From the IMG/VR virus record IMGVR_UViG_3300002140_000159, positions 1 through 64,000 of that record: a DNA stretch of 64,000 bases. One strand, written 5' to 3'. The stretch's first letter is position 1; each line of letters opens with the position of its first letter. Shown here piece after piece: positions 15,218 through 57,927 of this stretch. This DNA comes from a virus. The position numbers were made by a program, and so were the translations under genes. The notes below the pieces were generated by a model. That model saw nothing but the letters and a program-made list of their open reading frames with translations, ran no database searches and was not told the DNA's origin.

Positions 15218-18200
15218 ATGCAAGACTCTTTCGATGACACTATGTCACGCATTTCGCCTACGCCAATTACCCCTGAAGTTCGGCTCCCTACTGTGGGTGA
15301 GGTGGAGTCCAAATACAGATCTCTCCAGCAAGCCAGTAGAGACAAGATTAGCAGGTTAGAAGTCCGCAGACTTCAACAAGTAGCTCGTGAGAAAGCAGTT
15401 GCTGATTCCGTGGTGGGGCAGTTAGGACTTGACCCCAATGACACTTTTGGCGCTCTGGCTAATCGCGGTGTCGCTACCTACACCGGAGTTGCAACTGGTG
15501 CTGGTGCTTTGGCATCAGGTGCAGCCAATGAATTTGCTAGGTTTAACCGTGGCTTGGCAGACCCTCTTGTGCAGCAAGCCTACCAACGCCAGCAATGGGG
15601 GATAGCCAACGCGGATGACCTGAAGCTACTCAACGCCCCTACCGCAGATCGCACGTACTTGAGTGACTCAGATGCGGCTGAGCGCTTCGCCAATAAGATT
15701 GATGCTCGTCGTGCAGAGATTGCCACAATGGTGGCTCCTAACAAAGAGGGCATCCAACCAACTGGCTTACCCCAGATGGCGGTGGATGGTGGACTGAGTC
15801 TGCTCAAAGGCGCTATTGCTGTACCTGAAGCAGCAGTTGGTTTGGCCAGCATGGTTTCTGGTGGTGCAGCAGGCAAGTACTTAGAAGATGCTGGCTTTCG
15901 TCCTGGTGAAGCCAAAGACTTTATTGAGTCTCTGAAATCCGCAGAGATGCAAGCTGCAAGCCAAAGCGTCAATGGTGCAGAAGGCTTTTGGAACACTGTG
16001 GACCAAATGGCTGAAAACCCAAGCACAGTGCCGCACTTGTTGTTGGAATCACTATTCCCCATGCTGGCAGGTGGTGTGGCTGCGCGGGGTCTTCAAGCCT
16101 TGGGCGCAGGTGTCAAATTAGCGACAGCAGCAGGCGAAGGCGCTCTCATGGCTGGCTCTGCTGCAGAGCAAATTCGTGGGCAGACTGTAGACAAGCGCCT
16201 TTCCCTCAAGCAATCATTAGCTGCCGCCACCACAGGTGTGATGGGAGGTACTGTAGCTCGCTTGAGTGGTGGTGTATCAGGTCGTCTTGGTTTGGGTGAC
16301 ATTGATGAAGCCATCACCAAAGGTACGCTGGGCACATCTCAACGTGGGGTGCTCACCCGTACTGGTGGTGCCGCTGTGTTTGAAGGTGGTGAAGAAGCTT
16401 TGCAGTCCACGGGTGAAACTGTGCTGCAAAACTTTGCACTGGACAAAGCCTTAACCGAAGGTGTTGGTAATGCAGCTGCATTGGGTATGGTCACAGGTGC
16501 TGCTATGGGCGCACCTATGGGACTGGCCAAAGGAGTGGGCGAAGCACAGCAACGCTACCAGGACGCTACAAAGCTCCAGGACGAGGCGATTGCATCAGGT
16601 GATGTAACTGCATTGGCAGACCCAGCCGCACGCACCTACGCTCCTGAGAAGGCTATTGCCGCACTGACTGGCAATGCTCAGCTGGCTACAACTACTGAAG
16701 AAACCAAGCAAGCCCATCTGGCCAAGGCCGATGAGATTGTGGGTGTGCTGGATGAAAAGCGAGCAGCGCTAGCAGCAGACTTATCGAACAAAACACTCAA
16801 AGGTGTCACCGCCAAGATTGCTGAAATGCAAGCTCTCTTGGCCAATACAGACCCGGCTAAAGTCGACAAGGTCGCAGGCTACACAAGATACTTGGATAAC
16901 TTGCAAAAGGAGTTGCCTTTACTGCAAGAAGACAAGACTGACGGCAAGCGTACCAAGTCTTTGGAAAAAGAATTAGCTACGCTAGACACGCAGATAGAAG
17001 GTGTGAACACCGCCAAGACCCAGCTCAATCAGCTGGTAGAAGGCGGCACTGGTGTAGAGGCCATGCTGACATCATTGAGTACGCCGGTTGATCAAGCTGA
17101 CCCTGTAGCTGTAGAAGCTTCTGTGGCGACTGCAACTCGCGTAGTGAACTTGGCCATGTCTGCTCCTCAGCTGTTGGATCCTGTTCGTGCAGAGGAAGTA
17201 GCTGCAGACATGACCAATGCTTTGACAGCTCCACAGCGTTTGGTCTTGCGTGAGTTCTCAAAAGCACGGCTGGAGCAGAACCTACTGATTAGTGGCAGTG
17301 CTGTGTCACGCCAAATTTACGAAGGTGGCGGCGGTAATACAGGTATCAAAAATTACCAAGACCGCATGGCAGTAGCTGTGCGTACCGGCAATCAAAAACA
17401 AGCAGAAGAACAGCTTGATGGTCTGGGTAAATTTGAAGCGGACCACCGCAGCAAAGCGGAGGTGGCCGCTGCAGCAATGGCCAAAGGGCCAGGCATACAA
17501 ATCATTAAAGCCAATGGGCAATGGCAAATTGGCGATGGCTCGCTGTCACAAAGCAAGGCGCGTCCCAATGGTGCTTTAACAATTAATTCACCGAAATTGG
17601 TAAGCGACATTCAGCAAGAAGCTGCTGCACTGACTGCTTCGCTGAGCTATTTGACAAAGGCGTATGAGCTGAAGTTCAACGCACCTTCCGCTGATGCATC
17701 AACTTTGACTGGAGCTGAGAATGTCACGAACCAATCACAACAAGGACAGGGAGCGCAAGTTCAGTCCAAAACCCCTGCAACAAAAGATGCAGCGCCAACT
17801 GGAGGAACAGCGACTTCTTCCGAGGGAGTACCAGCAACCGTTGGAACCACTGGTGGTGTACAAGCCGCTGGAGTAACTGAGTCAGCTGTAGTAGAAGCTA
17901 AGTCAACTACAGTGAATGAAGAGACATCCGTCTCTTCTGTGAAGACTAAGAGTACTGGAGTAGATAAGAAGACTGAGATAACTCAGAAGACTCAGGAAGC
18001 TAAGAGTACTGAGATAACTGCAGACACTACAGTTGAAACACAGGCTAATTCAGAGAATAGCACAGTTGAGTCTGATACTGCCCAGACAATTGCCTCCGAT
18101 GGGAAACTTTCGGCACTTCAACAGACCTCCCCGGAGGGGACTCCCCACGATGAGAAAAAGCTAGGTGACTTTTTTACTCAGGAGTCTGGAAAAGACTCTG

Positions 18201-21200
18201 ATGGCTCAAAGCGTCCACTAGTAGAAGTCAAAAACTTCATGGCTGCAGTAGCTGCAGGTACAGTAAAAATAGGTCAGTACATCAAAGACCAGGACTTGGG
18301 CAAAGACTCAAAACTAGTAGCGTGGGCTAAGTTTGTTGAGAAAACTGCACAGTGGGCACCGATCATTGCTCGCAATCTGAAGGTTGGAGCCAACGCAAAA
18401 TTTAACTACGATGATCCAATACGTTATTTGATCCAAGCGATCAGCGTGAATGGGAAAAGCGGTATTGACGTTGAAGACAACGTGAAGACTGCCATGTCTG
18501 CTGCAGTGTTTGGGTACGTTGCTGATCTGGCCAGTCGAGCTGCTGCCAACAGTGATAAAGCAATCAACAGTACTCTGGGTCATCGCCCAGACTCGCCTAT
18601 CAGTGCAGATGCAAGAGCAGCGCTGACAGATGTTGGTGCGTACCAGTCCCAGGTAATTGACTCACTTGGCTCAGCTGTTATTGACGCACTGGGTTTTAAG
18701 ATTGACGTGAACGCACCTCAAGACATGCTGGCTAAATTGCGTGTGTCTCTTGGAGCCCACGCGTTTAAGCTGATGGAGGACCGAGGCTTATTGGTTCGTA
18801 CATCTTTCACCAATGGTGAAATCAACAATCTGCGTAACGAAGATCTGTTTGCAGACAATGAGGCTGAGAACTCAGGCGAAGAAACTACGCAAATTTCTGA
18901 CAAGGTAGTGGGACATCATTTTTACAAGCTCGCTCGTGACGAGGCAGGGCAGCCAAATGGCGAAGCCAAGGAAGTTGCAGATTCAATCAAAGGCTCTCAG
19001 AGCCTGATTCAAAACTTGTTTGGGATTGAGTCAGGTTTGTCGTTTCCAAGTCTCACGCCTATTGTTGGTGTGCAGAAACAATCAAACACTGGTATGGGAC
19101 TACCTGGCTTTGTTAAAAAGGTGTTCAAGCTCAATCAGACGCGACCATGGAAAGCCAACAAAGATCCGTTGAAGGTACTGAGTTTGTTCTCAGAAGAAGA
19201 AGGCATGGAGATGTCTGGCGTCGAGGCAGAGAGTGAGCACACTCACGTTCGCAACCGAAATAGCAAGCGCGCAAAAAACGATGGCCTGGCCCGTGAGTTT
19301 CGCAACTTCATGGGGTTTATGGGCGATCTGGCCATGGGCGAGAAAGGTATGGATCAAGAATTCTTCTTGAACCAAGATATGTGGAAGCAGCAACGCTCAG
19401 GCTACAAGAACAACACTGTGAACCCCAACACCAGCAAGATTGTTCGCTGGTTGATTGCTTCTGACAGTTGGAGCACAGTCATTGATCTGAGCAACGAAAC
19501 TCAGCTTCAGTCTTTCATGCTGCGTGCATCGGAAGGTTTTGGCATCAAGCCAGAAAAAGATGCCAGCCAGAGATCCGTTGATGCGCTTGATTCCATGATG
19601 CAAGACCCAGCGATGAAAGCTGCAGTCAAAGCACTTCAGGTAGTCCTGTTTACTGATAACGCTGTGCTGAGTGTGGAGCAACAAGCTGCAATTAAAGCAG
19701 CAGTTAAAACAGGCAACCAGAAACTCCATACGTTGGCTTCGCTGATCGCTTATGCCAAGTATCAGCAAGCTATTGACACAAAGGCGGATACATTTACGAC
19801 CAACCTGATGGGCGAGGTTGATGGTGTGTCCAATGGTTCTATCCTCAATGCAATCATGTATGGGGCTGCTGCTACTGCAGAGCAGTTGAACTTGCTGCTG
19901 GAGAAAGGCGGAATCTACGCTTTTGCACTTGGCACCCAAGAGCCTCGTTTCAAAGGGTACAACTTGTGGCGCGGTACACCAGGTCATCAGGACATTTACG
20001 AATCCAATGCCCAAGATTTACATTCCTATGTGAACTCAATGCCTGTTGAGAGTCGCGCAGTAACAGGTGCGATCTGGGCAACAGCTGGCTCTCCAATCAA
20101 TGCGGCATTAGAAGCGACCAAAGACGGACGAGATTTGCTCAAGGGGCCAATCAATCCGCTGAACTATGGTGGTGGCTTTACCAGCATCATTGGCAAGATG
20201 GCTTACGACTACGTGGATACCATGTACGAAAAGCTGGAAGGCTTCTCGCGCAAAGGCTCCGAACAATCTACTGTTGATGTGTTTGTGGGTAACGTCAACG
20301 TGCTGCTTCGTTCTGAGGGAGCTGCCCAGCTACCAGTTGGCAGGCCCATTTCGTACTACCTCAGCCGCTCGTTGTCAAAGTCACAGGAAGCCGCATTACG
20401 CAATGCGTATGCTGCAACGATTGGTGCAGCTACCAAAGAAGTAATTGGCACTAACTTTAAGCCATTCTTAAAGCGAAGCAAGCTGGTGACGCAGACGGTT
20501 GCCTTGTCCTACGGTTTGTACGAGGCTGTGTACACCGCTTCGCGTAACGCCATGATTGAGGAACTAGGCATCCCAACGACAAAGGCTGGGCCTATCCATG
20601 ATCTAAGCAAAGCACAAGAAGCAGAACTTGCAGAGCGTTTAAAAGACATCTTGCCTGTCATGCACACGGCAATGTCCAAAGACGAAGGCAATACCAGTAA
20701 TGGTATCTTGCTAGCCAAAAAAGGCCGCAAGCAAAACAACTCCTCAGCCTACAAAGTGCAAGTTTCTTTTGGCTCGAAGCTAAAAAATAATGCAAGCCAG
20801 CTAACTTCGGTTGGGCGTTCAGTGGTTCAAGAAGACCCAGGTGTGATTGCTATTTCTGGCACAACGCACGCACTAGACAGTGCTATTTCTCTTGATGCAC
20901 AAAACACAAACCATGTCGTAAACAACCATGATGCAGTAGGTGCAGGTATCAATACGTTGGCGGAGTCAGCGGATTCTTTGAACAAGAGCACTTGGTCAAG
21001 AACGCTCAACTACTCCCCATTGAATGAAGCTCACGACGCACTTATGCGCGTGGTTCGTGGCATTACGGAGATGGACCAGCGCGGCGAATTGACACCGGAA
21101 ATGCAAGCATCAATCAAAGAGATGCTGCAAAAGCTTGCCAAGAAGAACCGTGTCGACAAAGTTGAAACTCTTTTGGACACAACAGTGTTCAAAATTTTCA

Positions 21201-24200
21201 ATGAGGCTTTGGAAGCCAACAAAATTAAATTCGGTGCTATGTCTCAATGGGCGGTGGTTGACCAGTACGCCATGGACGGTGGCAGCCACACAGTGACTGA
21301 GGCAGATCGCAAAGAAGCCAGCGATAACCTTAATGCTCTAAGCCCTGTTCGTGCTGCAGCTGACTTACAAGCTTTGAATGATTTTGCTCTTACGATGTTT
21401 GGGGCAGGCGCTGTAAGCACTGTGCCAGATGCGCAGCCAGCAGTTGTTCCTAAAGAAGCAACACTCACGTCGGTGTTTGGCCCACTGGGCACACCTAAGA
21501 TTGCGCCTGATGCTGACTTGGTAGAGTTCTTTGAAGCCAACCCGGAAGCCAGCTTTAAGCGAGTGCTGCAGGGGTTGTTGCGCAAGGTGAGCACGGATGG
21601 CAGCATACCAAATCCGAAGTTCAACACTATGCTGATCAAGTCATTGGTCAAGTTGGTGGATCCAGAACTCCAGGTCAAGTACATCACCAAAGACTCGCCA
21701 GGAGACTTGCCTATCAATGGGCCAGTGATGGGTGCAAGGGGTTGGTTTGCCATGAATGGCACCAAGCAAGAGATCTATGTACTGAGTCCTGAGTTTGTGG
21801 ACTCTGGCTTGACCACAGAGCTGTTGATCCATGAGCTGGTTCATGCAGCTTTAAGCAACATTGTGCAGAGCACAGACAAAGCAGTGCAGCCTTTTATTGC
21901 AGAACTTAATGAGTTGCTTAAAGCTGCACAGACCACAGTTAATGGTGATGCCAAGCTCAAAGCCAAATTTGGAGATGCAGTTACTAGCTTAGATGAGTTA
22001 CTGGCTTGGGGCATGACCAACCAGGCATTCCAAACGGAAGTGCTTGCCAAGATCAATATGCAGTCCACCACACTGGGCAAGATGGCCAATCTTCTGCAAA
22101 TCTTTGTGGCTAACTTGGCTAACATGCTGGGCTTTAAAGATGTAGCTTCTGCTAATGGCTTGGGTGTGTTGATTGCTAATGTCTCTGCTTTGTTTGAACA
22201 AGTAGCTAAGACAGTGCCAGTAGAGCGCAAGCAAGACCCGGTTAACTTGGTCATGGCAACACCTGCTGCAGATCCATCGCTGCAAGCCAAGCTCAACACT
22301 TACAGCACGTTGGATTTACACGACGCACTGAAAGACGGCAAGCTAAGTGTGAACTTTGCCAATCAAGTGCGTGGCTTGCTTAGCAACATTGTTGAAAAGC
22401 TACATGGTCCATTCGGCTCCTTTAGTGCCAGCCTAATGGAAGAGCAAGCACTGTCGGCAGAAGATGTGTACCTCAAGGCGATCAACACGGGAGAAGTCCC
22501 ATTTGCTTCGCAAATACTAGGCTCTGGCTTTGTCGTTCCTGATCAAAGCATGTTCGCCATTGAGCAAATTGAAGCCACTGTGCGAGCCACACTGGAGAGC
22601 AAAGAAGCTTACAGCACGTCAGCCTACAGAGTTTTGTACGCCTTGTACACGGAGATCAAAAACAAGATCAAGGTAGAAGACTTCCATACCGGATCCCCAT
22701 GGAGCCAAGCCACGACTGCGGAGCAGGCGGCAGCGCAGGCGCTTCATGACTTTATCTTTAAGCTTGAAAGTAACAAAGGCCAGCGATCAGATTACCTGTC
22801 TCGCTTTGCTGCTATGGGTCTGGCTCATGAGGGCTTTAACAAGTTGCTGCAAGTGGCGACAGACCGCAGTCGCACAGTCGCCTCTACCAAGAGTTTTGCT
22901 GACCGATTGCAAGCAATCTTTGAGGGCATCTTGGCTTTCTGGAACACCAAGGTTACACACACGTACAAAGGCCAGCAAGCAGATCAAAAGCTGACTATGT
23001 TAGTTGGCCAGCTGGTAGACATTGAAGCCAAGCGTCGCTATAAGTTTGCACATCCACGGACAAGCCCAGTGCTTGATGCCATTGAAGATAAATCAAAAGC
23101 AGCCGCTGATGCACTGCGCAGCAAGATATCTAAGATGGCAGGTGCCCCTGCAGTGTCAGAAAACAAGTATGCCGTTGTACGAGCAGCGGGTGCTTTGGTT
23201 CAGACCGTTGCAGATAACCGGGTTGACTACTTCATGGACAACTTGCGCACCATGCGCAACTCTGCGTTCAAAGGCAAGCTGGGTGTAATTGCATCGACAC
23301 TTGGTGAACTGCAAGGACCAGCTAAAGCTTTGCAAGCCTTGCTGCGTGCGTCCAAGTGGATGGAAGGCCACCGCAAAGACGTGATTACCAACACCGCTAC
23401 GTTTGCGCGTGCTGGTTTTGCTAACCAAGGCAAAGGCATGAGTACGGCTGCCAAGGCGGCTGTCTCTCAAGTGTTCTTGCGTTCTGGCTTGCATCACTTG
23501 GTTGGCAAGTTCAGCATGGCTGAGATTGCTGGGTTAGTCAGCAACACCAGTGAGTTAAACAAAGCCGTGGCCACGTATGAAGCCAAGCTTAGTAGCTTTG
23601 GTAATGCCACCAAATACTTCATTGAGCAAGCCAATGCCCTTGGTATTCAAATTGCCACGGGGGGTGTACGCGGTGAGTTTGAAATGATGAACGCACACAA
23701 CATTGCTAACTTGTACGGCACGGCTTACCAAGGCAAGCTGACTGCAGCGCGTACAGCTGAAGCCAAAGAAGTCATTGAAGTTCTTGTGGCTTTGTATGCG
23801 CTAGGCTACACCGCCAGTGCTGCTCGCCTGGAAGCCTCTACATTGATTGCGATAGAGAACCAGCGTACTGATGGCAACGGTGTGGAGTCTGTACTCAAGC
23901 TGCACAAGCAACTGGAGAAAGAATCTCTGGAGCGTGTCTTTAAAGGTCTGCCTGAGCTAATGGTGCACGGCTACTTGCCTGAGATTTACGACCCCAACAT
24001 TGAAGTAAAAGTGGCTAACGTTGCAGATGGTAAAGACTTGATCAACCTTGGCTACACCAAAGGTGAGCAAGTGGTGTTGGACCGGGCTGATCCAGATCGT
24101 TCTATGCGCCACATGTACGTCCGCGATGGGGGCGGTATGGGTAGACGTGTGTCAGGCATCACGTCCACAAAAAGCTTGAACAGCAAGGGTACAGAAAATC

Positions 24201-25810
24201 ACAGTGGGTACACAAATACCAACACGTTCACTGGTGCACAAAACGCTGCAGCCAATGCGGACTTGATGGCTTCTCGCAAGCAAGCCATTGCTGACATGTT
24301 TACGCCAGGTCCACGCCGTGATCTGTCAAAAGTGAAGGCCAACCACATGGCACCTGTGCTTAATGAGCGGGGTGAGGTTGTGAAGTGGCGCTACATGATG
24401 GCAAACACCACCAAGGACAGCGTACTCAACCGGGACAACAGCTTTGACAAATTGCTGGGTGTTTTGGCTGGCGCTACTTATGACAAGGAAACTTCACGCG
24501 AGCAGAACAAAACAGCCTTCACTGCGCTCAAGGCACAGTATGACGCTGACTATGTCAAGAACCCAGAAGCGTATGTGCTGGTGGGTCAGGGTGCTCTCAC
24601 CAAAGAAATGAAAGAGATTTGGGATCTATTGCCTGCTGACAGCAAAGCTGATGCAAGAGCTATCTGGGGATACGACGGCATGATGGTCAAGAACGACGCT
24701 TTGGACATTATGTTTGGCTACCGCAAAGCGTCACTGGCTAATGCTTTTGCAAAAGATCCAGCGCTGCGCAGTGCACTTGAAAACATATTTGTTGATGTAA
24801 TGGAATGGTCACTGAGCCAACACGGTCGCGCGTTCCAAGGCATGGACCGAGACAAAGCACTGGCTTACGCAAAGATTGCCGCTATCAAGATCACGCGAGG
24901 AGAAAAAGTTTGGCAGGAACTGGTGGGTGAAGTCAAAGACATCTTGGTGGTCAAGACTGGCTTTGTGATGATGGGCAACATCTACTCCAACTTGTCATTG
25001 CTTTGGTTGAATGGTGTACCGATTAAGGATATTCTTAACCATCACTTGGTAGCTTTGAAAGGCGCTACAGCTTACAAACAGGACAGTGCTGAGCTGGCCC
25101 AACTTACGCTACTGCGCGACACTGGTTACATGCAAGGCAAAGATCTTGAAGTGAACCGGCGCATTGCTCGCTTGGAAGACAGCTTAGCAAACAATCCAGT
25201 CAAGGAACTTATTGATCTTGGCTTGATGCCAACCATCGTAGAAGACTTGGCCGCAGACGAAGATATTTACTCTTACAAGAGTGCTTTTGTCAGAATAGTG
25301 AGCAAGTTTACTGACAAGCTCAACCCAACCGTAGTCAAGGCAGCCAGAGTGGCGTACATGGCGCATGACACGCAGCTGTACCAAGGTCTGTCGCGTGTGA
25401 CGCAGTTGTCTGACTTTGTGGCTCGGTACACGCTTTACCAGCACAACATCAACAAGCGCAATCCCATGAGTAAGGAAGATGCTATTCAAGATGCCAGTGA
25501 TGCGTTCATCAACTACGACATTCCGATGCACCAGTCATTGCAGTACATGGATGACATGGGGCTGCTGCCGTTTACCAAGTACTTCCTGCGTATTCAGAAA
25601 GTCCTTGCTAAATTGTTTATGGACAATCCAGCACGGGTGTTGATGGCCATGTCTGTGGGACAGCTTATGGACTTGGGGCCCATCGTTCTGGAGAGTTCTA
25701 TGTTTGGTCGGATAGGCAACAATCCACTAGACGTTGGGCCTTTTAAGCTGCTTACGGTGCTAGATGACATTGCCACTATCAATGCTGCTTTGTCTATCGT
25801 GAAACAGTAA
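15218..25810 (+). CDS. N4-like virion-encapsidated single-subunit RNA polymerase (giant virion protein)
   Basis: 3,530 aa. Motif A is GEVDGVSNGS (D1535). Motif B is RDLLKGPINPLNYGG, matching R-x3-K-x7-YG (R1638, K1642, Y1650). Motif C is NNHDAVG (D1905). Upstream, FFLNQDMWKQQRSGY...NP resembles T7 FPYNMDWRGRVY...NP. Confidence 0.85.
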   Translation: MQDSFDDTMSRISPTPITPEVRLPTVGEVESKYRSLQQASRDKISRLEVRRLQQVAREKAVADSVVGQLGLDPNDTFGALANRGVATYTGVATGAGALASGAANEFARFNRGLADPLVQQAYQRQQWGIANADDLKLLNAPTADRTYLSDSDAAERFANKIDARRAEIATMVAPNKEGIQPTGLPQMAVDGGLSLLKGAIAVPEAAVGLASMVSGGAAGKYLEDAGFRPGEAKDFIESLKSAEMQAASQSVNGAEGFWNTVDQMAENPSTVPHLLLESLFPMLAGGVAARGLQALGAGVKLATAAGEGALMAGSAAEQIRGQTVDKRLSLKQSLAAATTGVMGGTVARLSGGVSGRLGLGDIDEAITKGTLGTSQRGVLTRTGGAAVFEGGEEALQSTGETVLQNFALDKALTEGVGNAAALGMVTGAAMGAPMGLAKGVGEAQQRYQDATKLQDEAIASGDVTALADPAARTYAPEKAIAALTGNAQLATTTEETKQAHLAKADEIVGVLDEKRAALAADLSNKTLKGVTAKIAEMQALLANTDPAKVDKVAGYTRYLDNLQKELPLLQEDKTDGKRTKSLEKELATLDTQIEGVNTAKTQLNQLVEGGTGVEAMLTSLSTPVDQADPVAVEASVATATRVVNLAMSAPQLLDPVRAEEVAADMTNALTAPQRLVLREFSKARLEQNLLISGSAVSRQIYEGGGGNTGIKNYQDRMAVAVRTGNQKQAEEQLDGLGKFEADHRSKAEVAAAAMAKGPGIQIIKANGQWQIGDGSLSQSKARPNGALTINSPKLVSDIQQEAAALTASLSYLTKAYELKFNAPSADASTLTGAENVTNQSQQGQGAQVQSKTPATKDAAPTGGTATSSEGVPATVGTTGGVQAAGVTESAVVEAKSTTVNEETSVSSVKTKSTGVDKKTEITQKTQEAKSTEITADTTVETQANSENSTVESDTAQTIASDGKLSALQQTSPEGTPHDEKKLGDFFTQESGKDSDGSKRPLVEVKNFMAAVAAGTVKIGQYIKDQDLGKDSKLVAWAKFVEKTAQWAPIIARNLKVGANAKFNYDDPIRYLIQAISVNGKSGIDVEDNVKTAMSAAVFGYVADLASRAAANSDKAINSTLGHRPDSPISADARAALTDVGAYQSQVIDSLGSAVIDALGFKIDVNAPQDMLAKLRVSLGAHAFKLMEDRGLLVRTSFTNGEINNLRNEDLFADNEAENSGEETTQISDKVVGHHFYKLARDEAGQPNGEAKEVADSIKGSQSLIQNLFGIESGLSFPSLTPIVGVQKQSNTGMGLPGFVKKVFKLNQTRPWKANKDPLKVLSLFSEEEGMEMSGVEAESEHTHVRNRNSKRAKNDGLAREFRNFMGFMGDLAMGEKGMDQEFFLNQDMWKQQRSGYKNNTVNPNTSKIVRWLIASDSWSTVIDLSNETQLQSFMLRASEGFGIKPEKDASQRSVDALDSMMQDPAMKAAVKALQVVLFTDNAVLSVEQQAAIKAAVKTGNQKLHTLASLIAYAKYQQAIDTKADTFTTNLMGEVDGVSNGSILNAIMYGAAATAEQLNLLLEKGGIYAFALGTQEPRFKGYNLWRGTPGHQDIYESNAQDLHSYVNSMPVESRAVTGAIWATAGSPINAALEATKDGRDLLKGPINPLNYGGGFTSIIGKMAYDYVDTMYEKLEGFSRKGSEQSTVDVFVGNVNVLLRSEGAAQLPVGRPISYYLSRSLSKSQEAALRNAYAATIGAATKEVIGTNFKPFLKRSKLVTQTVALSYGLYEAVYTASRNAMIEELGIPTTKAGPIHDLSKAQEAELAERLKDILPVMHTAMSKDEGNTSNGILLAKKGRKQNNSSAYKVQVSFGSKLKNNASQLTSVGRSVVQEDPGVIAISGTTHALDSAISLDAQNTNHVVNNHDAVGAGINTLAESADSLNKSTWSRTLNYSPLNEAHDALMRVVRGITEMDQRGELTPEMQASIKEMLQKLAKKNRVDKVETLLDTTVFKIFNEALEANKIKFGAMSQWAVVDQYAMDGGSHTVTEADRKEASDNLNALSPVRAAADLQALNDFALTMFGAGAVSTVPDAQPAVVPKEATLTSVFGPLGTPKIAPDADLVEFFEANPEASFKRVLQGLLRKVSTDGSIPNPKFNTMLIKSLVKLVDPELQVKYITKDSPGDLPINGPVMGARGWFAMNGTKQEIYVLSPEFVDSGLTTELLIHELVHAALSNIVQSTDKAVQPFIAELNELLKAAQTTVNGDAKLKAKFGDAVTSLDELLAWGMTNQAFQTEVLAKINMQSTTLGKMANLLQIFVANLANMLGFKDVASANGLGVLIANVSALFEQVAKTVPVERKQDPVNLVMATPAADPSLQAKLNTYSTLDLHDALKDGKLSVNFANQVRGLLSNIVEKLHGPFGSFSASLMEEQALSAEDVYLKAINTGEVPFASQILGSGFVVPDQSMFAIEQIEATVRATLESKEAYSTSAYRVLYALYTEIKNKIKVEDFHTGSPWSQATTAEQAAAQALHDFIFKLESNKGQRSDYLSRFAAMGLAHEGFNKLLQVATDRSRTVASTKSFADRLQAIFEGILAFWNTKVTHTYKGQQADQKLTMLVGQLVDIEAKRRYKFAHPRTSPVLDAIEDKSKAAADALRSKISKMAGAPAVSENKYAVVRAAGALVQTVADNRVDYFMDNLRTMRNSAFKGKLGVIASTLGELQGPAKALQALLRASKWMEGHRKDVITNTATFARAGFANQGKGMSTAAKAAVSQVFLRSGLHHLVGKFSMAEIAGLVSNTSELNKAVATYEAKLSSFGNATKYFIEQANALGIQIATGGVRGEFEMMNAHNIANLYGTAYQGKLTAARTAEAKEVIEVLVALYALGYTASAARLEASTLIAIENQRTDGNGVESVLKLHKQLEKESLERVFKGLPELMVHGYLPEIYDPNIEVKVANVADGKDLINLGYTKGEQVVLDRADPDRSMRHMYVRDGGGMGRRVSGITSTKSLNSKGTENHSGYTNTNTFTGAQNAAANADLMASRKQAIADMFTPGPRRDLSKVKANHMAPVLNERGEVVKWRYMMANTTKDSVLNRDNSFDKLLGVLAGATYDKETSREQNKTAFTALKAQYDADYVKNPEAYVLVGQGALTKEMKEIWDLLPADSKADARAIWGYDGMMVKNDALDIMFGYRKASLANAFAKDPALRSALENIFVDVMEWSLSQHGRAFQGMDRDKALAYAKIAAIKITRGEKVWQELVGEVKDILVVKTGFVMMGNIYSNLSLLWLNGVPIKDILNHHLVALKGATAYKQDSAELAQLTLLRDTGYMQGKDLEVNRRIARLEDSLANNPVKELIDLGLMPTIVEDLAADEDIYSYKSAFVRIVSKFTDKLNPTVVKAARVAYMAHDTQLYQGLSRVTQLSDFVARYTLYQHNINKRNPMSKEDAIQDASDAFINYDIPMHQSLQYMDDMGLLPFTKYFLRIQKVLAKLFMDNPARVLMAMSVGQLMDLGPIVLESSMFGRIGNNPLDVGPFKLLTVLDDIATINAALSIVKQ

Positions 25811-53850: not shown

Positions 53851-55007
53851 TTGATGCCCAACTTTTGAGCTACGCATCAGTGCGTCAAATTGAATATCTT
53901 GAAGCGATTGAAGCCACTGGCAATATGCGCCAGGCAGCATTGAAGCTAAATGTTCACCACACTGTGGTGACTAGAGCCATGCAAGCATTGCGTCTAAAAG
54001 CTGCAATGCATGGACATGCCCCAACCCATGACATGACCAGGACTGTGCCAATTGGTTTCAAGGTGAAAGGTATTTCAACCTTGTACAACACCAAAGGTGA
54101 AGTAGCCAGCCAATGGGTTAAGAGCACTGCTGATGACCAGGCGATGGAAACAGCCATGGAGGAGTTTGCTGCGAACTTGGCTGAAGGTGTGAAAGGACTG
54201 AGCGGTATTACGCCAGCCCCTGAGCACTGTGATGATGATTTGATGTGCGTGATCCCCATAGGGGATCCGCACTTTGGTTTGAGAGTTTGGGCACAAGAGG
54301 GCGGTGACAACTTTGACTTGGACATGGCTGAGAAGTTAACCTGTAGTGCGTTAGACCGACTCATTGCCAGTGCACCGCCTGCTAAGACAGCCATGCTGTT
54401 GAATCTGGGGGATCACTTCCATAGCGATAACCAATCCAACACGACAACAGCAGGTACTGTGGTTGACGTGGATGGTCGTTGGGCCAAGATCCAGCAGATT
54501 GGTTTGAGATCGATGCTGTACTGCATTCGCCGTTTGCTTGAGAAGCATGAGACGGTGATTTTTAGGATCAACCGAGGCAACCACGACAAGCACAGCTCTT
54601 ACGCGCTGGCTTTGATGATCAGTTGCTACTTTCACGATGAGCCAAGAGTCCAAGTGGACTTGTCTCCGGCAGCAGCGTACTACTACCAGTTTGGCCGGAA
54701 CTTGATTGCCTCAACCCATGGAGACACCATGAAAGGTCCAGCCATGATGGGTGTGATGGCGGCAGATCAGCCCAAGATGTGGGGTGACACCAAGCATCGT
54801 TATTGGTACGTTGGGCATGTGCACCACGTTGACAAGAAAGAGTACCCAGGTGGCATCGTGGAGTACTTCAGGACTTTGGCTGCAGGAGATGCCTGGCATA
54901 ACGGTCAGGGATACAGGTCAGGTCGGGATATGTGCTTGATTGTTTTGCACAAGGAGCACGGTGAAGTGGAACGGCACCGATGCGACGTGGGCATGATTTC
55001 AGCCTGA
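53847..55007 (+). CDS. HTH domain fused to calcineurin-like metallophosphoesterase
   Basis: N-terminal MRQAALKLNVHHTVVTRAMQAL HTH. The metallophosphoesterase motifs are GDPHFG, LGDHFHSDN, RGNHD, THGD and GHVHH. Confidence 0.7.
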   Translation: MIDAQLLSYASVRQIEYLEAIEATGNMRQAALKLNVHHTVVTRAMQALRLKAAMHGHAPTHDMTRTVPIGFKVKGISTLYNTKGEVASQWVKSTADDQAMETAMEEFAANLAEGVKGLSGITPAPEHCDDDLMCVIPIGDPHFGLRVWAQEGGDNFDLDMAEKLTCSALDRLIASAPPAKTAMLLNLGDHFHSDNQSNTTTAGTVVDVDGRWAKIQQIGLRSMLYCIRRLLEKHETVIFRINRGNHDKHSSYALALMISCYFHDEPRVQVDLSPAAAYYYQFGRNLIASTHGDTMKGPAMMGVMAADQPKMWGDTKHRYWYVGHVHHVDKKEYPGGIVEYFRTLAAGDAWHNGQGYRSGRDMCLIVLHKEHGEVERHRCDVGMISA

Positions 55008-55016
55008 TTCTGAGCA

Positions 55017-55052
55017 GGATATTAGGCAATGCCTAATATTTGCCTAATATCC
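55017..55052. repeat. cluster of three TGCCTAATAT motifs (one inverted, two direct), candidate integrase arm-type sites
   Basis: GGATATTAGGCA-A-TGCCTAATAT-T-TGCCTAATATCC. Further copies lie at 55220-55228 (direct) and 55307-55315 (inverted), on the other side of the att core. Confidence 0.5.
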
Positions 55053-55065
55053 TGCCAAGCGGACA

Positions 55066-55098
55066 ATAAAAAAAGGAGCTACGTTTGCACGTAACTCC
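55066..55098 (-). terminator. rho-independent terminator on int strand, located across attP from int
   Basis: On the minus strand, GGAGTTACGT-GCAA-ACGTAGCTCC (one mismatch) is followed by T7. Confidence 0.55.
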
Positions 55099-55119
55099 TT
55101 GATTTAACTATCAAAATAG

Positions 55120-55167
55120 TGGCTCCTCGAACTGGGCTCGAACCAGTGACCTACGGATTAACAGTCC
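55120..55167 (-). other. attP core: 3' 48 nt of tRNA-Asn(GUU)
   Basis: The reverse complement GGACTGTTAATCCGTAGGTCACTGGTTCGAGCCCAGTTCGAGGAGCCA covers the anticodon loop CUGUUAA, the T-arm, the 3' acceptor strand and CCA. No D-arm or 5' acceptor strand lies upstream. Confidence 0.8.
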
Positions 55168-55318
55168 TGTAACCGTATGCCCCGCTAAGCCGCATGGTTG
55201 CTGGGTTCTTCAATAAAATTGCCTAATAAAAACTTATGCAAGATAGTTGTATAGCCTGCACGTAAGTACTTAATTCTGTTGGAATATTAGATGCCAACAG
55301 AATCCGTATTAGGCAGAT

Positions 55319-56386
55319 TTAACCTAGCATTTCCACACGATTTGGCTCAGCTGTTTCACGCCATCTGGCCTTGATGTATTTCTCAGTTGTGTTCTTTGTA
55401 GCATGGCCACAAAGCAGCTGGATTCGCTCAATCGGAATGCCAGCAAGCCACATGTCTGTAGCTCCTTTTCCTTTCAGATCTCTGAAGCCAAATGAAGCCA
55501 TGTCAGCCAGCTCTGGGACGGTTTCCCGCACCTTCACCTGCGCTCGGCGCAGCATAGATGAAATGCCATCGTATGTGTAGCCAGTACCATCACGGGCGTG
55601 GATCAATGGCTGATGAATCATTGGGATTTGACCGATGGATTTTCGGATCATTACTTCCAATGTTTCAGTCAAGCCAACGTCCACAAGTCTGCCGGTCTTG
55701 TACTGCCTGAAGCTCAGGACACGAACTCCATCTTTGTTCTTGAGGACTGAGGGAGTCCACAAGATGATGTCGCTCTCTGGTCGTTGCAAGGTACGGAATG
55801 TCATCTCCATGAGCAGTCGCACCTGGAAAGGTGCAGCAGCGAACACAGCTTTGTATTCCTGGTTCGTGACATAGCGTTCACGTTGCTTTTCAGCATTGCG
55901 AACAACACCACTGGCCCTCATACAAGGGTTGATGGTGATGTCGCCTTGGTTAGACCGGATCATCCAAGACATACAACTAGACAGGCAAGCCCTCTCTCGA
56001 TTTGCACGCACGCCTCGGTTCATCTTTGCGCCCATATCCAAGTATTCAGATACGTGGTGGGGCTTGACCTCGGATGGTGTCATTGAGCCAAACCCTGCGC
56101 GAAGAAATGAGGAGGCGTTGATGTAGTCTTCCAGCGTCCTTGCAGACAGGTCTTTGACTTTGACCCTTGCAGCACAGTCCAAAAGAAACTGATCCAAGTA
56201 CCAAGACATGGTTCCCCAGATACCAGATGGGTCGTTGTAGTGGTCTGCACGTTTCTTTGCAAGGCTCAGGTCTTTGCCTAAGTTCTCCCACTTGTTAGTG
56301 TCTGGATGGACGTAGAAGAACACACCGTGGTTTAGATAAGTTCGGCGTGGCAAGCCTTGGCTGGCATCTTTGCGTTTACGGCCCAT
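55319..56386 (-). CDS. int: tyrosine integrase, lambda-Int-like with N-terminal arm-binding domain
   Basis: N-terminus MGRKRKDASQGLPRRTYLNHGVFFYVHPDTNKWENLG compares with lambda MGRRRSHERRDLPPNLYIRNNGYYCYRDPRTGKEFGLG. The C-terminus has LCGHATKNTTEKY. Confidence 0.9.
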   Translation of the reverse strand: MGRKRKDASQGLPRRTYLNHGVFFYVHPDTNKWENLGKDLSLAKKRADHYNDPSGIWGTMSWYLDQFLLDCAARVKVKDLSARTLEDYINASSFLRAGFGSMTPSEVKPHHVSEYLDMGAKMNRGVRANRERACLSSCMSWMIRSNQGDITINPCMRASGVVRNAEKQRERYVTNQEYKAVFAAAPFQVRLLMEMTFRTLQRPESDIILWTPSVLKNKDGVRVLSFRQYKTGRLVDVGLTETLEVMIRKSIGQIPMIHQPLIHARDGTGYTYDGISSMLRRAQVKVRETVPELADMASFGFRDLKGKGATDMWLAGIPIERIQLLCGHATKNTTEKYIKARWRETAEPNRVEMLG

Positions 56387-56627
56387 GACGTTTTCCTTGG
56401 AAAAGATGCATTAGTGCTGTCGTGTTTAAACCTTTGGCAGAGTTTGCTAAGTCTGGTCTGTTACCTACCAGCACACGCTCAAATTCAGACCTGGCTACGA
56501 GTGCTTTACCGTTTGGTTTACGGTTGACAAGCATACCCAGCTTCTTAAAGTAGCGTATTTGTGCTGATGGAGCAATCAAAGGCTCACAGATAGCAGCGAT
56601 CTCAGTGTCTGTGAGATAGGGTGTCAT
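56376..56627 (-). CDS. DUF4224-like small DNA-binding protein (candidate excisionase)
   Basis: MTPYLTDTEIAAICEP...QIRYFKKLGMLVNRKPNGKALV, with its end overlapping the int start. The start is moved to 56627 because the longer ORF would run through a terminator. Confidence 0.5.
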   Translation of the reverse strand: MTPYLTDTEIAAICEPLIAPSAQIRYFKKLGMLVNRKPNGKALVARSEFERVLVGNRPDLANSAKGLNTTALMHLFQGKRHGP

Positions 56628-56647
56628 ATTTTGGTTCCGAATAGGCG

Positions 56648-56671
56648 TAAAAAAACCCACTCATTGGTGGG
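56648..56671 (-). terminator. rho-independent terminator ending the leftward early operon
   Basis: On the minus strand, CCCAC-CAATGA-GTGGG followed by T7. Confidence 0.5.
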
Positions 56672-56691
56672 CTTGTGTTGGGTGGGGTTGT

Positions 56692-56913
56692 TTACCCGTC
56701 GTTCTTTCCCTTCAGTATGGCTTCGGCGGCTCGTATCATGTCGTGCGTACTTGGTTCAACGTAGAAAGGGGATAATGCGTTTATCTCATTACCCATCAGC
56801 CCTACCCACGGGCGCTTTGGTGTACATAACTCATCCAGCGCCACCGAGTATTCTTTGTAGTCGTCATCGTCCAAGTTGTTTCGCAAGAATCTGTCAATCA
56901 GGTCGTAGCTCAT
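56692..56913 (-). CDS. hypothetical protein
   Basis: 73-aa ORF coupled to the upstream gene. Confidence 0.5.
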   Translation of the reverse strand: MSYDLIDRFLRNNLDDDDYKEYSVALDELCTPKRPWVGLMGNEINALSPFYVEPSTHDMIRAAEAILKGKNDG

Positions 56914-57284
56914 GTCTTATCTCCTATGCCGTGGGCGGCTTCGATTGGTGGCGGAGGCAGTGGCATCCAATGGGTTGGCGCTGTTTCAAGGATGGTGTAC
57001 CCACGTCCGCTTGGCCCGATTGGAGTTTGCCAATGCCCGCCATGGTCGCCCTCATACGCGATAGCCCACCACGCCTCACAAACAGGCTTCCGCCCGCTTC
57101 TTGGGCAGTAAATCAATATGCTTGATGAGTTCTTTGGTGCAGTTTCAATCGGATTCCACGCTACATGCTCTTGCACTGGCTGTGCCAAGGCCGCTTTGAG
57201 CTTCTTAACAACTGGATTTCTTTCCGGAAAATCCAAATACGCACACAACTCATCAAGCGCCTGCTGCATTACTTCGCGGCTCAT
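56910..57284 (-). CDS. DUF551-like protein
   Basis: WNPIETAPKN...THWMPLPPPP. The start is set at the ATGA overlap (57284). Confidence 0.5.
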   Translation of the reverse strand: MSREVMQQALDELCAYLDFPERNPVVKKLKAALAQPVQEHVAWNPIETAPKNSSSILIYCPRSGRKPVCEAWWAIAYEGDHGGHWQTPIGPSGRGYTILETAPTHWMPLPPPPIEAAHGIGDKT

Positions 57285-57505
57285 GATTGGTTCCTTATTG
57301 CTTCGGCGCATTCTTTCGGGCCACTGTTATCGCCCATGCGCCAAGGCCAGTGCAGGTTGTCACACAGCGATGCACAAGCCTCACGCTCACGTGCTGCTGC
57401 AAAGTTGGCAAAGGCTTTAAGAGCCTCAGCATAATAACCACCTCTGTTTTCCTTGGTTATTAGCTGGAACATTACAGCCATTCCGATAATGTCGTCTCTA
57501 GTCAT
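57281..57505 (-). CDS. hypothetical protein
   Basis: 74-aa ORF coupled within the operon. Confidence 0.5.
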   Translation of the reverse strand: MTRDDIIGMAVMFQLITKENRGGYYAEALKAFANFAAAREREACASLCDNLHWPWRMGDNSGPKECAEAIRNQS

Positions 57506-57690
57506 GTGTTTTTCTCCTTGGCCAAGGCTGTTTCCAGCTTGGCTATGGCGTAGCTAATGTCAGTGGCATCGTCTTGGTTGCACTGATAACCTCCAAAGTC
57601 GTTCTGATACAAGAAATCCATAGTCTCCAACAGGTTTCTTGCTGCTTGCTCAATAGTCATAGCTATGTCCTTAGTTACAGGTTTAGGCAT
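57502..57690 (-). CDS. hypothetical protein
   Basis: 62-aa ORF coupled within the operon. Confidence 0.45.
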   Translation of the reverse strand: MPKPVTKDIAMTIEQAARNLLETMDFLYQNDFGGYQCNQDDATDISYAIAKLETALAKEKNT

Positions 57691-57907: not shown

Positions 57908-57927
57908 AACAGTACCTCTATGGGTTG

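What the first reader, a model, noticed from the sequence alone, without database searches (positions are those of the whole stretch)
55017..56627. Complete lambda-like integration module (Int, Xis-like, tRNA-Asn attP, arm-type repeats) in a vRNAP phage
Seen in the sequence:
- a tyrosine integrase whose N-terminus resembles the lambda Int arm-binding domain;
- an overlapping DUF4224-like gene;
- a 48-nt exact-looking 3' portion of tRNA-Asn(GUU) in the same orientation as int;
- five copies of TGCCTAATA(T), three at 55019-55050 and two at 55220-55228 and 55307-55315, flanking the core as arm-type sites would.

To my knowledge N4-like (vRNAP) phages are described as strictly virulent. A temperate member would have to keep an injected RNA polymerase from committing the cell to lytic early transcription. 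I saw no CI/Cro-like pair in this window.
Basis: partly seen in the sequence, partly recalled or inferred. Interest (0 to 1): 0.7.

Follow-up and report, generated by a model that had tools for sequence, protein, structure and literature searches.

The report
Integration cassette in an N4-like phage
A phage of the N4 type, whose cultured members are all strictly lytic, carries an intact lambda-style cassette for inserting its genome into a host tRNA-Asn gene; close relatives carry other such cassettes at the same spot, and more distant ones sit inserted in bacterial DNA, which fits a 2023 metagenome survey that had already reported integrase-bearing N4-like viruses.

Summary
Window 55014-56627 is a compact integration cassette. 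It holds a 355-aa tyrosine integrase with a lambda-Int-like arm-binding N-domain and an overlapping DUF4224-type excisionase candidate. It also holds a 48-nt tRNA-Asn(GUU) 3' fragment and five copies of TGCCTAATA that occur nowhere else in the window (0.31 expected).

Comparative data support function:
- Relatives have five repeats at the same offsets from the core, with different repeat sequences.
- An 83%-identical integrase is seen in both phage and integrated forms at tRNA-Asn.
- The 48-nt core is 100% identical to the tRNA-Asn gene of betaproteobacterium MOLA814 and related marine bacteria.
- All seven genomes examined from this phage clade (the window included) have an integrase cassette in the same slot. 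There are at least six kinds, with tRNA-Asn, tRNA-Asp and tRNA-Val fragments.
- Two clade members lie next to bacterial genes, one of them at an intact tRNA-Val.

An integrated copy of this exact phage was not found, and neither was a repressor. Verdict: a real feature, well supported, and a new member of a known kind. Interest is moderate.

The parts
55319..56386 (-). Tyrosine integrase, 355 aa, lambda-Int-like with three domains (arm-binding N-domain about residues 1-55, core-binding domain, catalytic domain). Family-invariant R202, K230, R302-D-L-K305, H328, Y337.
   Evidence: PHROG phrog_1 E 2e-31. phmmer to lambda Int chains E 8.5e-4 from residue 1. hhalign to lambda Int probability 97% over residues 1-349. 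AF2 pLDDT 84.5 with strands 16-19, 22-26, 33-37 and helix 40-50. Foldseek top hits 1z1b, 5j0n, 1z1g. Invariant residues in 42 homologues.
56376..56627 (-). Excisionase (RDF) candidate, 83 aa, divergent DUF4224 member. Its stop overlaps the int start by 11 nt.
   Evidence: Pfam DUF4224 20.1 bits, cut-off 22. Its 57%-identical homologue in L087 scores 25.8 bits, and ZF40 gp03 and ST64B Sb29, annotated 'excisionase' directly upstream of related int genes, score 70.5 and 51.5 bits. The pairing with int is conserved in most of the 75 bacterial loci. A single-sequence AF2 model (pLDDT 68.5) shows helix-turn-helix plus beta-hairpin; its best local Foldseek matches are BldC and MerR-type winged HTH, not significant.
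55120..55167 (-). attP core: 3' 48 nt of tRNA-Asn(GUU), from the 3' end of the 5' strand of the anticodon stem (about tRNA position 29) through the anticodon loop to the terminal CCA.
   Evidence: 100% identical to the 3' 48 nt of the tRNA-Asn gene next to fnr in L177-L185, including the Betaproteobacteria bacterium MOLA814 genome contig AYMW01000002.1. ARAGORN calls that gene tRNA-Asn gtt in L092. Identity with the host stops exactly at 55167.
55020..55049 (.). Cluster of three arm-type sites on the side of the core away from int: 55020-55028 (-), 55030-55038 (+), 55041-55049 (+). The two direct copies are 11 nt apart.
   Evidence: Exact copies; window-wide count 5 against 0.31 expected. Equivalent triplets lie 70-92 nt beyond the core in L090 and L082 and 48-72 nt beyond it in L087, each with its own motif; only one exact copy was scored there in L091.
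55220..55228 (+). Arm-type site between core and int, 60 nt from the core in int orientation.
   Evidence: A site sits at the same offset (60-63 nt) in L090, L091, L082 and L087.
55307..55315 (-). Arm-type site just after the int stop codon, 148 nt from the core.
   Evidence: Same offset (146-148 nt) in L090, L091 and L082; 125 nt in L087.
55063..55100 (-). Intrinsic terminator (12-bp stem plus T-run) just downstream of the tRNA 3' end. It would terminate the reconstituted tRNA-Asn after integration.
   Evidence: Terminator scan. Hairpins with a T-run sit at the same place in the L082 and L087 attP regions and in the bacterial flank of L081.
55092..55104 (-). IHF-consensus match AATCAAGGAGTTA (WATCAANNNNTTR), 15 nt after the CCA. 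A one-mismatch copy lies at 55263-55275 on the int side.
   Evidence: Regex scan. A perfect match sits at the same offset in L090 and L091, 4 nt after the core in L087, and on the int-side arm in L082. The consensus itself is from memory.
56640..56671 (-). Hairpin followed by a T-run on the minus strand, directly upstream of the xis-like start. It marks the right edge of the cassette.
   Evidence: Sequence read directly and stem found. Homology with non-N4 phage L082 ends at 56627. Contig L001 ends at 56700, and L002 has an unaligned stretch just past 56700.
15218..25810 (+). Virion RNA polymerase (3530 aa), the hallmark that makes this an N4-like phage.
   Evidence: phrog_2206, 1757 bits. About 30% identity over 1594 aa to Pseudomonas N4-like vRNAPs.

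Best explanation
Window 55014-56627 is a working lambda-type site-specific recombination cassette carried by an N4-like (vRNAP) phage.

Proposed mechanism:
- Int binds the five TGCCTAATA arm sites with its N-terminal domain and binds core sites in the tRNA-like segment with its central and catalytic domains. An IHF-like host factor probably bends the arms.
- Strand exchange takes place inside the 48-nt identity block, probably around the anticodon loop. This inserts the circularised phage genome into the tRNA-Asn(GUU) gene of a marine betaproteobacterium related to strain MOLA814.
- The phage-borne 48 nt and the terminator behind them rebuild an intact tRNA gene.
- The overlapping DUF4224 protein directs excision.

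The cassette is one of several interchangeable integration cassettes that occupy a fixed slot, between the exonuclease/lysis genes and the DNA-polymerase operon, in this clade of N4-like phages. The clade is therefore most likely temperate.

What is shown: the anatomy, the homology, the exact match to a host tRNA, the conserved site layout with changing motifs, and relatives lying next to bacterial genes. What is inferred: recombination activity of this Int, the crossover position, the excisionase role, and how lysogeny is established and kept.
For: 1. Int is lambda-like over its whole length, arm-binding domain included.
2. The five arm repeats are unique to this 300-bp stretch. They sit 148 and 60 nt before the core and 71, 82 and 91 nt after it. 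Repeats lie within 1-2 nt of these offsets in L090 and L082, with motif (T/C)GTCTAATA, and in the same 2+3 layout at shifted offsets in L087, with TCCAATAT. L091 shows three exact copies of GTCCAATA at matching offsets.
3. The core is 100% identical to the 3' 48 nt of tRNA-Asn in MOLA814-like genomes, and the identity ends exactly at the fragment boundary.
4. An 83%-identical Int with the same layout is seen both followed by phage genes (L082, L083) and followed by bacterial genes (L081, L084). The sequences are identical up to 3 nt past the CCA and then diverge.
5. Many of the 75 Betaproteobacteria loci carry a 44-48-nt tRNA-Asn fragment after int. Three of them also have an intact tRNA-Asn 6-10 kb upstream, giving a direct-repeat pair.
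6. Homology with the non-N4 phage L082 spans exactly 55014-56627, so the cassette is a discrete unit.
7. Close relatives of the phage carry other cassettes in the same slot. L188 (polymerase 96% identical) has a 381-aa Int with a tRNA-Asp-like fragment. L094 (87%) has a 423-aa Int with a tRNA-Val-like fragment. L189 (70%) has a 324-aa Int with DUF4224.
8. L095 shows N4-type replication and RNAPII genes, then int, then an intact tRNA-Val, then hupB-lon-clpX-clpP. L096 shows phage genes running into greA and spoT, while the same polymerase protein also occurs on contigs that continue with phage genes.
9. The exo-attP-int junction is covered by independent contigs from other samples.
10. Published precedent exists: PMC10654107.
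Against: - No contig was found with this phage's own arm sequence next to an intact tRNA-Asn, so no attL for this phage.
- No bacterial locus carrying a related Int held any other window gene within 10 kb.
- No CI/Cro-type repressor was detected among the ORFs scanned.
- Nearly all contigs of the clade end at about 70-77 kb, as free phage genomes do.
- The catalytic HxxR box is the unusual RDLK.
- The presence of vRNAP on the two integrated contigs could not be verified.
- All cultured N4-like phages are lytic.
Confidence: 0.72

Rival explanations
1. The cassette is a recently acquired passenger that is intact in sequence but does not give the phage a lysogenic cycle. The phage lives lytically, and integration is rare, abortive or leads to a dead end because injected vRNAP commits the cell.
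For: No repressor was found in the ORFs scanned. No integrated copy of this phage was found. Clade contigs are mostly of free-genome size. The cassette is clearly horizontally mobile, with 73% nt identity to a non-N4 phage.
Against: All seven clade genomes examined keep an intact int cassette in the same slot, in at least six versions. That is hard to explain without selection for integration. The core is still 100% identical to a host tRNA. Two relatives lie next to bacterial genes.
Confidence: 0.18
2. The arrangement is a metagenome assembly chimera that joins an N4-like phage to the int-attP end of an ordinary temperate phage.
For: The window comes from metagenomic data. The same cassette type occurs on unrelated temperate phages. 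One contig ends at 56700, right beside the cassette.
Against: The exo-attP-int junction is reproduced at over 99.9% identity in the 41-kb contig behind L001 from another sample and in L002, and at 92% in a TARA contig. L002 continues from int and xis into the small ORFs on the polymerase side. Relatives L094, L188 and L189 show polymerase, small ORFs, int and exo (or other phage genes) on single contigs.
Confidence: 0.03
3. Int serves a purpose other than chromosomal integration, for example resolving replication multimers or circularising the genome at the phage's own site. On this view the tRNA similarity is a relic.
For: Some tyrosine recombinases (Xer, Cre) resolve dimers. The catalytic box is unusual.
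Against: Dimer resolvases lack an arm-binding domain, arm sites and an excisionase partner. Here all three are present. The core keeps perfect identity to a host tRNA gene. Close Int homologues are integrated at tRNA-Asn.
Confidence: 0.04

Closest known systems
Phage lambda Int / Xis / attP system (heterobivalent tyrosine integrase with arm-type sites and IHF)
   Same: Three-domain Int with an N-terminal arm-binding domain. The xis-like gene overlaps the int start, as lambda xis does. Arm-type repeats lie on both sides of a core, IHF-consensus sites lie in the arms, and attP lies just downstream of int.
   Different: - The core is a 48-nt tRNA-Asn fragment, not lambda's 15-bp core.
- The RDF candidate is a DUF4224 protein with no detectable similarity to lambda Xis.
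- The arm layout is 2+3, against lambda's P1, P2 and P'1-3 with different spacing.
- The catalytic box is RDLK instead of HELR.
- The carrier is an N4-like podophage.
Integrases of temperate phages ST64B (Sb28) and ZF40 (gp02), each with a DUF4224 'excisionase' directly upstream
   Same: These are among the closest integrases of cultured, named phages, at 27-30% identity over at least 94% of the length. The gene order DUF4224 then int is the same. They share Lys at the Arg-II position, reading HDLK.
   Different: The window family also replaces the His, giving RDLK. The att sites of those phages were not examined here. They are ordinary temperate phages, not vRNAP phages.
Integrase-encoding and integrated N4-like viruses reported by Zheng et al. 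2023 (mSystems, PMC10654107)
   Same: The same phenomenon: N4-like genomes from metagenomes that carry integrases, and proviral N4-like regions in bacterial contigs. The authors propose a lysogenic strategy.
   Different: In the passages read here, that survey describes its proviral hosts as mainly Moraxella, plus Enterococcus, and those passages give no att-site anatomy. I could not check whether this genome or clade is in their set, because their tables are not held. This case adds the att anatomy, a candidate host tRNA, and exchange of cassettes in one slot.
tRNA-gene integration with a long identity block, the anticodon-loop class in K. P. Williams' 2002 survey of tRNA/tmRNA integration sites (recalled from memory)
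   Same: The identity block runs from the anticodon stem to the 3' end of the tRNA (48 nt). The element restores the tRNA and supplies a terminator.
   Different: The crossover point was not mapped here. Assignment to that class is by block length only.
LUZ100 and marine T7-like phages with integrases (Autographiviridae members with temperate features; PMC10134795, seen)
   Same: A phage family regarded as strictly lytic, dependent on a phage RNA polymerase, in which some members carry integration genes.
   Different: T7-like phages make their RNAP after infection. N4-like phages inject it, so the commitment problem differs.

Membership tests
Lambda-type heterobivalent tyrosine integrase | C-terminal tyrosine-recombinase catalytic domain with the nucleophile Tyr and the R-K-HxxR-H/W residues | tested here: inconclusive
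   R202, K230, H328 and Y337 are invariant in 42 homologues and align with lambda R212, K235, H333 and Y342. The HxxR box reads RDLK. ZF40 and ST64B Ints read HDLK, so Lys at Arg-II occurs in real temperate phages. Arg in place of His was not tested for activity. The Pfam score of 24.2 is below the 27.1 cut-off, but PHROG phrog_1 gives E 2e-31.
Lambda-type heterobivalent tyrosine integrase | Separate N-terminal arm-binding domain (three-stranded sheet plus helix) | tested here: met
   Residues 1-47 align with lambda Int 1-48 (1kjk domain E 0.16). hhalign covers the protein from residue 1. The AF2 model has strands 16-19, 22-26, 33-37 and helix 40-50. The best Foldseek hits are full-length lambda Int chains with 350-388 aligned columns.
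Lambda-type attP | Repeated arm-type sites on both sides of the core, distinct from the core sequence | tested here: met
   Five exact TGCCTAATA copies against 0.31 expected. The layout recurs at matching offsets in L090, L082 and partly L091, and in the same 2+3 pattern in L087, with a different motif in each. Binding by Int was not tested.
Lambda-type attP | Host-factor (IHF) bending sites in the arms | tested here: inconclusive
   One perfect WATCAANNNNTTR match lies at 55092-55104 and a one-mismatch copy at 55263-55275. Perfect matches occur at corresponding places in L090, L091, L082 and L087. Roughly two perfect matches are expected by chance in the whole window (my estimate), so position and conservation carry the argument.
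tRNA-targeting integrative element | attP core identical to the 3' part of a host tRNA gene | tested here: met
   48 of 48 nt are identical to the tRNA-Asn(GTT) gene in L177-L185, including the MOLA814 genome.
tRNA-targeting integrative element | Integrated copy flanked by an intact tRNA and a direct repeat of the core | tested here: not met
   Not found for this phage. It is met for elements with related Ints: L020, L035 and L040 have an intact tRNA-Asn plus a downstream fragment, and L081 and L082 are the integrated and free forms of one phage. The search was limited to one genome per species and to exact-match scans.
Excisionase / recombination directionality factor | Small DNA-binding protein encoded next to int that directs excision | tested here: inconclusive
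   The position and the overlap with int are as in lambda. Membership in DUF4224 is weak for the window protein (20.1 bits) but clear for its homologues and for the annotated excisionases of ZF40 and ST64B. The predicted winged-HTH-like fold is of moderate confidence, and no PDB match is significant. There is no similarity to lambda Xis. Function is not testable here.
N4-like phages (Schitoviridae) | Giant virion-encapsidated RNA polymerase | tested here: met
   3530-aa ORF, phrog_2206 at 1757 bits. About 30% identity to vRNAPs of Pseudomonas N4-like phages.
N4-like phages (Schitoviridae) | N4-type replication and transcription genes (RNAPII, DNA polymerase, SSB, primase) | tested here: met
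   A PF00940 RNA_pol gene lies on the contig that extends the window leftwards (L078). The window also has a family A DNA polymerase, SSB phrog_743, primase phrog_2135 and exonuclease phrog_2139.
Temperate phage | Lysogeny maintenance system (repressor) and recoverable lysogens | tested here: not met
   No CI/Cro-like protein was found among the ORFs scanned. About 8 kb of the genome lies outside the window: about 5 kb was seen in L078 (gene list with Pfam labels only) and about 3-4 kb was not seen. Recovery of lysogens is not testable here.

The most novel reading that the evidence does not exclude
A whole clade of N4-like phages of marine and freshwater Burkholderiales is truly temperate. 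It keeps a dedicated slot in which integration cassettes with different tRNA targets (Asn, Asp, Val) are swapped between near-identical genomes. These phages may hold the prophage silent without a classical CI repressor, because early transcription needs the virion-delivered RNA polymerase, which a lysogen does not contain. The real control point would then be neutralising the injected polymerase at the moment of infection.
Probability: 0.4. Interest if true: 0.7.

Novelty: new member of a known kind. Interest (0 to 1): 0.45.

Why it matters
N4-like phages are textbook obligately lytic phages and are popular candidates for phage therapy on that assumption. Lysogeny in the family rests so far on one metagenome survey. 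This window gives a cleanly dissected case with a complete attP, a matching host tRNA gene in a cultured bacterium (MOLA814), and relatives that exchange cassettes in one slot or lie integrated. That makes two questions directly testable. Can such a phage integrate (attP x attB assay, junction PCR in MOLA814-like strains)? How does a phage that injects its own RNA polymerase avoid committing every infected cell to lysis? It also warns that an N4-like genome is not a safe proxy for a strictly lytic lifestyle.

Tried and rejected
- An exact 32-nt scan of IMG/VR for the arm-site cluster found nothing.
- The window-end protein 63271-63951 is not on record in the contig index.
- I tried to prove that the integrated contigs behind L095 and L096 also carry a vRNAP, and every attempt failed:
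  - a vRNAP segment against viral contigs gave 3 loci;
  - an alignment-based scan gave 49 loci without the target;
  - a back-translated MHTAMSKD motif found only the same 3 relatives;
  - the neighbouring 753-aa protein gave 23 loci without the target;
  - the last protein-database search, with the vRNAP segment, returned no scored hit, so that search was wasted.
- An Rfam scan of 54000-58000 gave only a chance-level sRNA hit on the hairpin at 56636-56674 and no tRNA hit for the fragment.
- Comparison of the xis-like protein with lambda Xis gave no alignment.
- I considered that L092, L177 and L180 are the attL of this phage and rejected it. Only 111 nt match (the tRNA 3' end plus 63 nt). 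Beyond that the repeats are TAGTAGGC rather than TATTAGGCA, and the DNA is unrelated to the window.
- I considered that the window is itself an integrated prophage and rejected it. Phage genes flank an intact attP on both sides.
Full report
**What is in the sequence.**
The region holds two overlapping minus-strand genes. The first is a 355-aa ORF at 55319-56386. The second is an 83-aa ORF with its ATG at 56627 and stop at 56376, which overlaps the first by 11 nt.

The larger protein is an integrase by PHROGs (phrog_1, E 2e-31). Pfam Phage_integrase scores 24.2 bits, just under the 27.1 cut-off. The smaller protein is a weak DUF4224 match, 20.1 bits against a cut-off of 22.

Downstream of int, at 55120-55167, the minus strand reads GGACTGTTAATCCGTAGGTCACTGGTTCGAGCCCAGTTCGAGGAGCCA. 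This is the 3' 48 nt of a tRNA-Asn(GUU). ARAGORN finds no full tRNA in the window, and BLAST matches annotated tRNA-Asn genes.

TGCCTAATA occurs five times in the 64-kb window, all between 55020 and 55315. Shuffles give 0.31 expected. Three copies lie on the far side of the core from int, in orientations -, +, +, with the two direct copies 11 nt apart. Two lie between the core and int (+, -).

The window is an N4-like phage:
- a 3530-aa vRNAP at 15218-25810 (phrog_2206, 1757 bits; about 30% identical to Litunavirus vRNAPs);
- N4-type SSB, primase, exonuclease and DNA polymerase;
- a PF00940 RNAPII gene on the contig that extends the window to the left.

**The integrase is lambda-like, arm-binding domain included.**
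phmmer aligns residues 1-203 with lambda Int from residue 1: MGRKRKDASQGLPRRTYL.. against MGRRRSHERRDLPPNLYI.. (E 8.5e-4). A 42-sequence profile aligns with lambda Int over residues 1-349 at hhalign probability 97%.

The AlphaFold model (pLDDT 84.5) has three strands and a helix in residues 16-50. Its best Foldseek matches are the full-length lambda Int structures 1z1b, 5j0n and 1z1g, at E about 1e-14.

R202, K230, H328 and Y337 are invariant across 42 homologues. The HxxR box is unusual. The family reads RDLK where lambda has HELR, a related Int in L096 has HDLR, and the Ints of the temperate phages ZF40 and ST64B have HDLK. Lys at the second arginine position therefore occurs in functional integrases. 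Arg in place of the histidine is specific to this family.

**The repeats behave as arm-type sites.**
In int orientation the five sites lie 148 and 60 nt before the core and 71, 82 and 91 nt after it. Three other attP regions with related Ints have five repeats each:
- L090 (Int 80% identical): offsets within 1 nt of the window's, except that the repeat 82 nt after the core was not scored and an extra copy lies 162 nt before it; motif TGTCTAATA;
- L082 (Int 82-83% identical): offsets within 1-2 nt, motif (T/C)GTCTAATA;
- L087 (Int 66-68% identical): the same 2+3 layout at shifted offsets (125 and 63 nt before, 48, 59 and 72 nt after), motif TCCAATAT.

A fourth region, L091, shows three exact copies of GTCCAATA at matching offsets. 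A conserved layout with a changing motif is what binding sites for a co-evolving protein domain would show.

Two further features are shared. A strong terminator hairpin (55073-55100, with its T-run at 55063-55072) follows the tRNA 3' end, and equivalent hairpins exist in the relatives. A perfect IHF consensus, AATCAAGGAGTTA, lies 15 nt after the CCA, with counterparts in L090, L091, L082 and L087.

**Close Int homologues do integrate at tRNA-Asn.**
A scan of one genome per species found 75 loci, nearly all from Betaproteobacteria, with 44-79% identity over the aligned part of Int (45-64% for full-length matches). The DUF4224-like gene accompanies int in most of them, but no other window gene does.

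Many loci have a 44-48-nt tRNA-Asn fragment after int, usually 100-200 bp downstream and in the same orientation. L020, L035 and L040 also have an intact tRNA-Asn 6-10 kb upstream, which is the signature of an integrated element flanked by direct repeats.

The 83%-identical Int (P0002) occurs on contigs where phage genes follow it (L082, L083: lysis genes and a retroelement). It also occurs on contigs where bacterial genes follow (L081, L084: a non-specific endonuclease gene, then genes with the Pfam domains of a Y-family DNA polymerase, an S24 peptidase and TctC). The two forms are identical through ..GAGGAGCCAGAA and then diverge.

**A candidate host.**
An exact-match metagenome scan of the junction between the core and the far-side arm found a TARA contig, L092, with an intact tRNA-Asn. 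The gene beside it encodes a protein identical to ESS13726.1 of Betaproteobacteria bacterium MOLA814.

In nine further contigs carrying that gene, including the MOLA814 genome itself, the tRNA-Asn 3' 48 nt are 100% identical to the window core. The identity stops exactly at the fragment boundary.

Downstream of the CCA these contigs show three different contexts:
- an island with a 460-aa integrase;
- an arm of the same family as the window's, with two TAGTAGGC repeats;
- a similar arm with three GTAGGC repeats.

The site is therefore a hot spot for such elements. None of the contigs carries this phage's own arm, so an integrated copy of this phage was not seen.

**The cassette is a discrete, exchangeable unit in a fixed slot.**
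Nucleotide homology with the non-N4 phage L082 spans exactly 55014-56627 at 73% identity. Relatives of the phage itself keep the flanks but not the cassette:
- L091: exo 100% identical at the protein level, but a different arm motif.
- L188: polymerase 96% identical. The slot holds a DUF4224-like gene, a 381-aa divergent integrase (phrog_1, E 5e-17), a tRNA-Asp(GUC)-like fragment and ATTCCAAAGT repeats.
- L094: polymerase 87%, exo 89%, lysozyme 94%. The slot holds an HTH_17 gene, a 423-aa integrase and a tRNA-Val(UAC)-like fragment.
- L189 and L190: polymerase 70%. The slot holds DUF4224, a 324-aa integrase and an H-NS-like gene.

All seven clade genomes examined, counting the window, have an integrase in this slot.

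**Integrated relatives.**
L095 comes from a 103-kb contig; IMG/VR lists a 70.9-kb viral entry from the same sample that matches it. It runs through RNAPII, the DUF2201/vWA gene, helicase, polymerase (66% identical), small ORFs, an HTH_17 gene and int. It then reaches an intact tRNA-Val(TAC) and the bacterial hupB-lon-clpX-clpP genes.

L096 comes from a 94-kb contig. It runs from the same gene set through DUF4224 and int into greA and spoT. The identical polymerase protein also sits on contigs that continue with phage structural genes.

I could not confirm a vRNAP on those two contigs. Other members of the polymerase clade with about 70-kb contigs do carry one; one example is the 73,555-bp contig seen.

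**What is missing.**
No CI/Cro-like repressor turned up among the ORFs scanned. About 8 kb of the genome lies outside the window, and 3-4 kb of that was not seen at all.

A hairpin with a T-run on the minus strand (56640-56671) sits directly upstream of the xis-like start. How xis and int are expressed is therefore unclear.

One inference, not tested: a prophage of this type may be largely silent by default, because early promoters need the virion-delivered polymerase. The harder problem would then be how lysogeny is established in the presence of the injected enzyme.

**Comparison with the literature.**
Zheng et al. 2023 (PMC10654107) reported 54 N4-like genomes with lysogeny hallmark genes across 21 proposed subfamilies. 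They also reported 40 integrated proviruses, mostly in Moraxella. The existence of integrase-bearing N4-like viruses is therefore published.

Cultured N4-like phages are still described as strictly lytic, for example in PMC12952038. What this case adds is a fully dissected lambda-type attP, an exact host tRNA match in a cultured bacterium, and cassette swapping in one slot.

**Verdict.**
It is a new member of a known kind, of moderate interest.

Noticed in passing
window 55319-56386 (Int residues 301-310): The whole Int family (42 of 42 sequences) has FGFRDLKGKGATD where lambda Int has TFHELRSLSAR. The canonical His and second Arg of the HxxR box are replaced by Arg and Lys. ZF40 and ST64B integrases share the Lys (HDLK).
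   Followed up: partly
L177-L185 and L092 (tRNA-Asn next to the fnr gene of MOLA814-like betaproteobacteria): This tRNA-Asn is an integration hot spot. Three different sequences follow the CCA in different contigs: an island with a 460-aa integrase, and two arms of the window's type with TAGTAGGC or GTAGGC repeats. Most assemblies break within a few hundred bases to about 3.7 kb of the tRNA, including the isolate genome AYMW01000002.1.
   Followed up: partly
L188 about 6700-6960; L094 about 18300-18400: Near-identical phages (polymerase 96% and 87% identical) carry different integrases and tRNA-Asp(GUC)-like or tRNA-Val(UAC)-like fragments in the same slot. L188 has ATTCCAAAGT repeats around its fragment.
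   Followed up: partly
window 56640-56700: A hairpin with a T-run on the minus strand lies 12 nt upstream of the xis-like ATG. One independent contig ends at 56700, and another has an unaligned stretch of about 36 nt just past 56700 and lacks 56915-57278. The small-ORF region 56692-57967 varies between relatives.
   Followed up: partly
window 34368-37218 (minus strand): Ribonucleotide reductase appears as two ORFs overlapping by 83 nt. ORF 36106-37218 matches the first third of the RNR profile and 34368-36188 matches the rest. This could be a frameshift, a sequencing error or a split gene.
   Followed up: no
window 46508-47964: Two adjacent genes of unknown function (242 and 240 aa) are 52% identical tandem paralogues. 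They lie within a run of seven similar-sized unannotated ORFs (44731-50149). Most of the block 38.5-52.6 kb is replaced by other DNA in the TARA relative L091.
   Followed up: partly
window 50780-52159: A 459-aa radical SAM protein is encoded just upstream of the holin and lysozyme genes. It is conserved in relative L188. Its role is unknown.
   Followed up: no
window 53847-55007: The exonuclease-like protein next to attP (phrog_704, E 4e-102) has a weak LysR-type HTH match at its N-terminus (residues 13-49, Pfam HTH_1, 22.8 bits, below the cut-off). Close homologues (385 aa; 89% identical in L094) flank the slot in L094 and L188.
   Followed up: no
L189 15620-15931: A clade relative (polymerase 70% identical) encodes an H-NS-like protein (Pfam Histone_HNS, 43.7 bits) two small ORFs downstream of its integrase. 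It is a possible silencing factor worth checking in the context of lysogeny.
   Followed up: no
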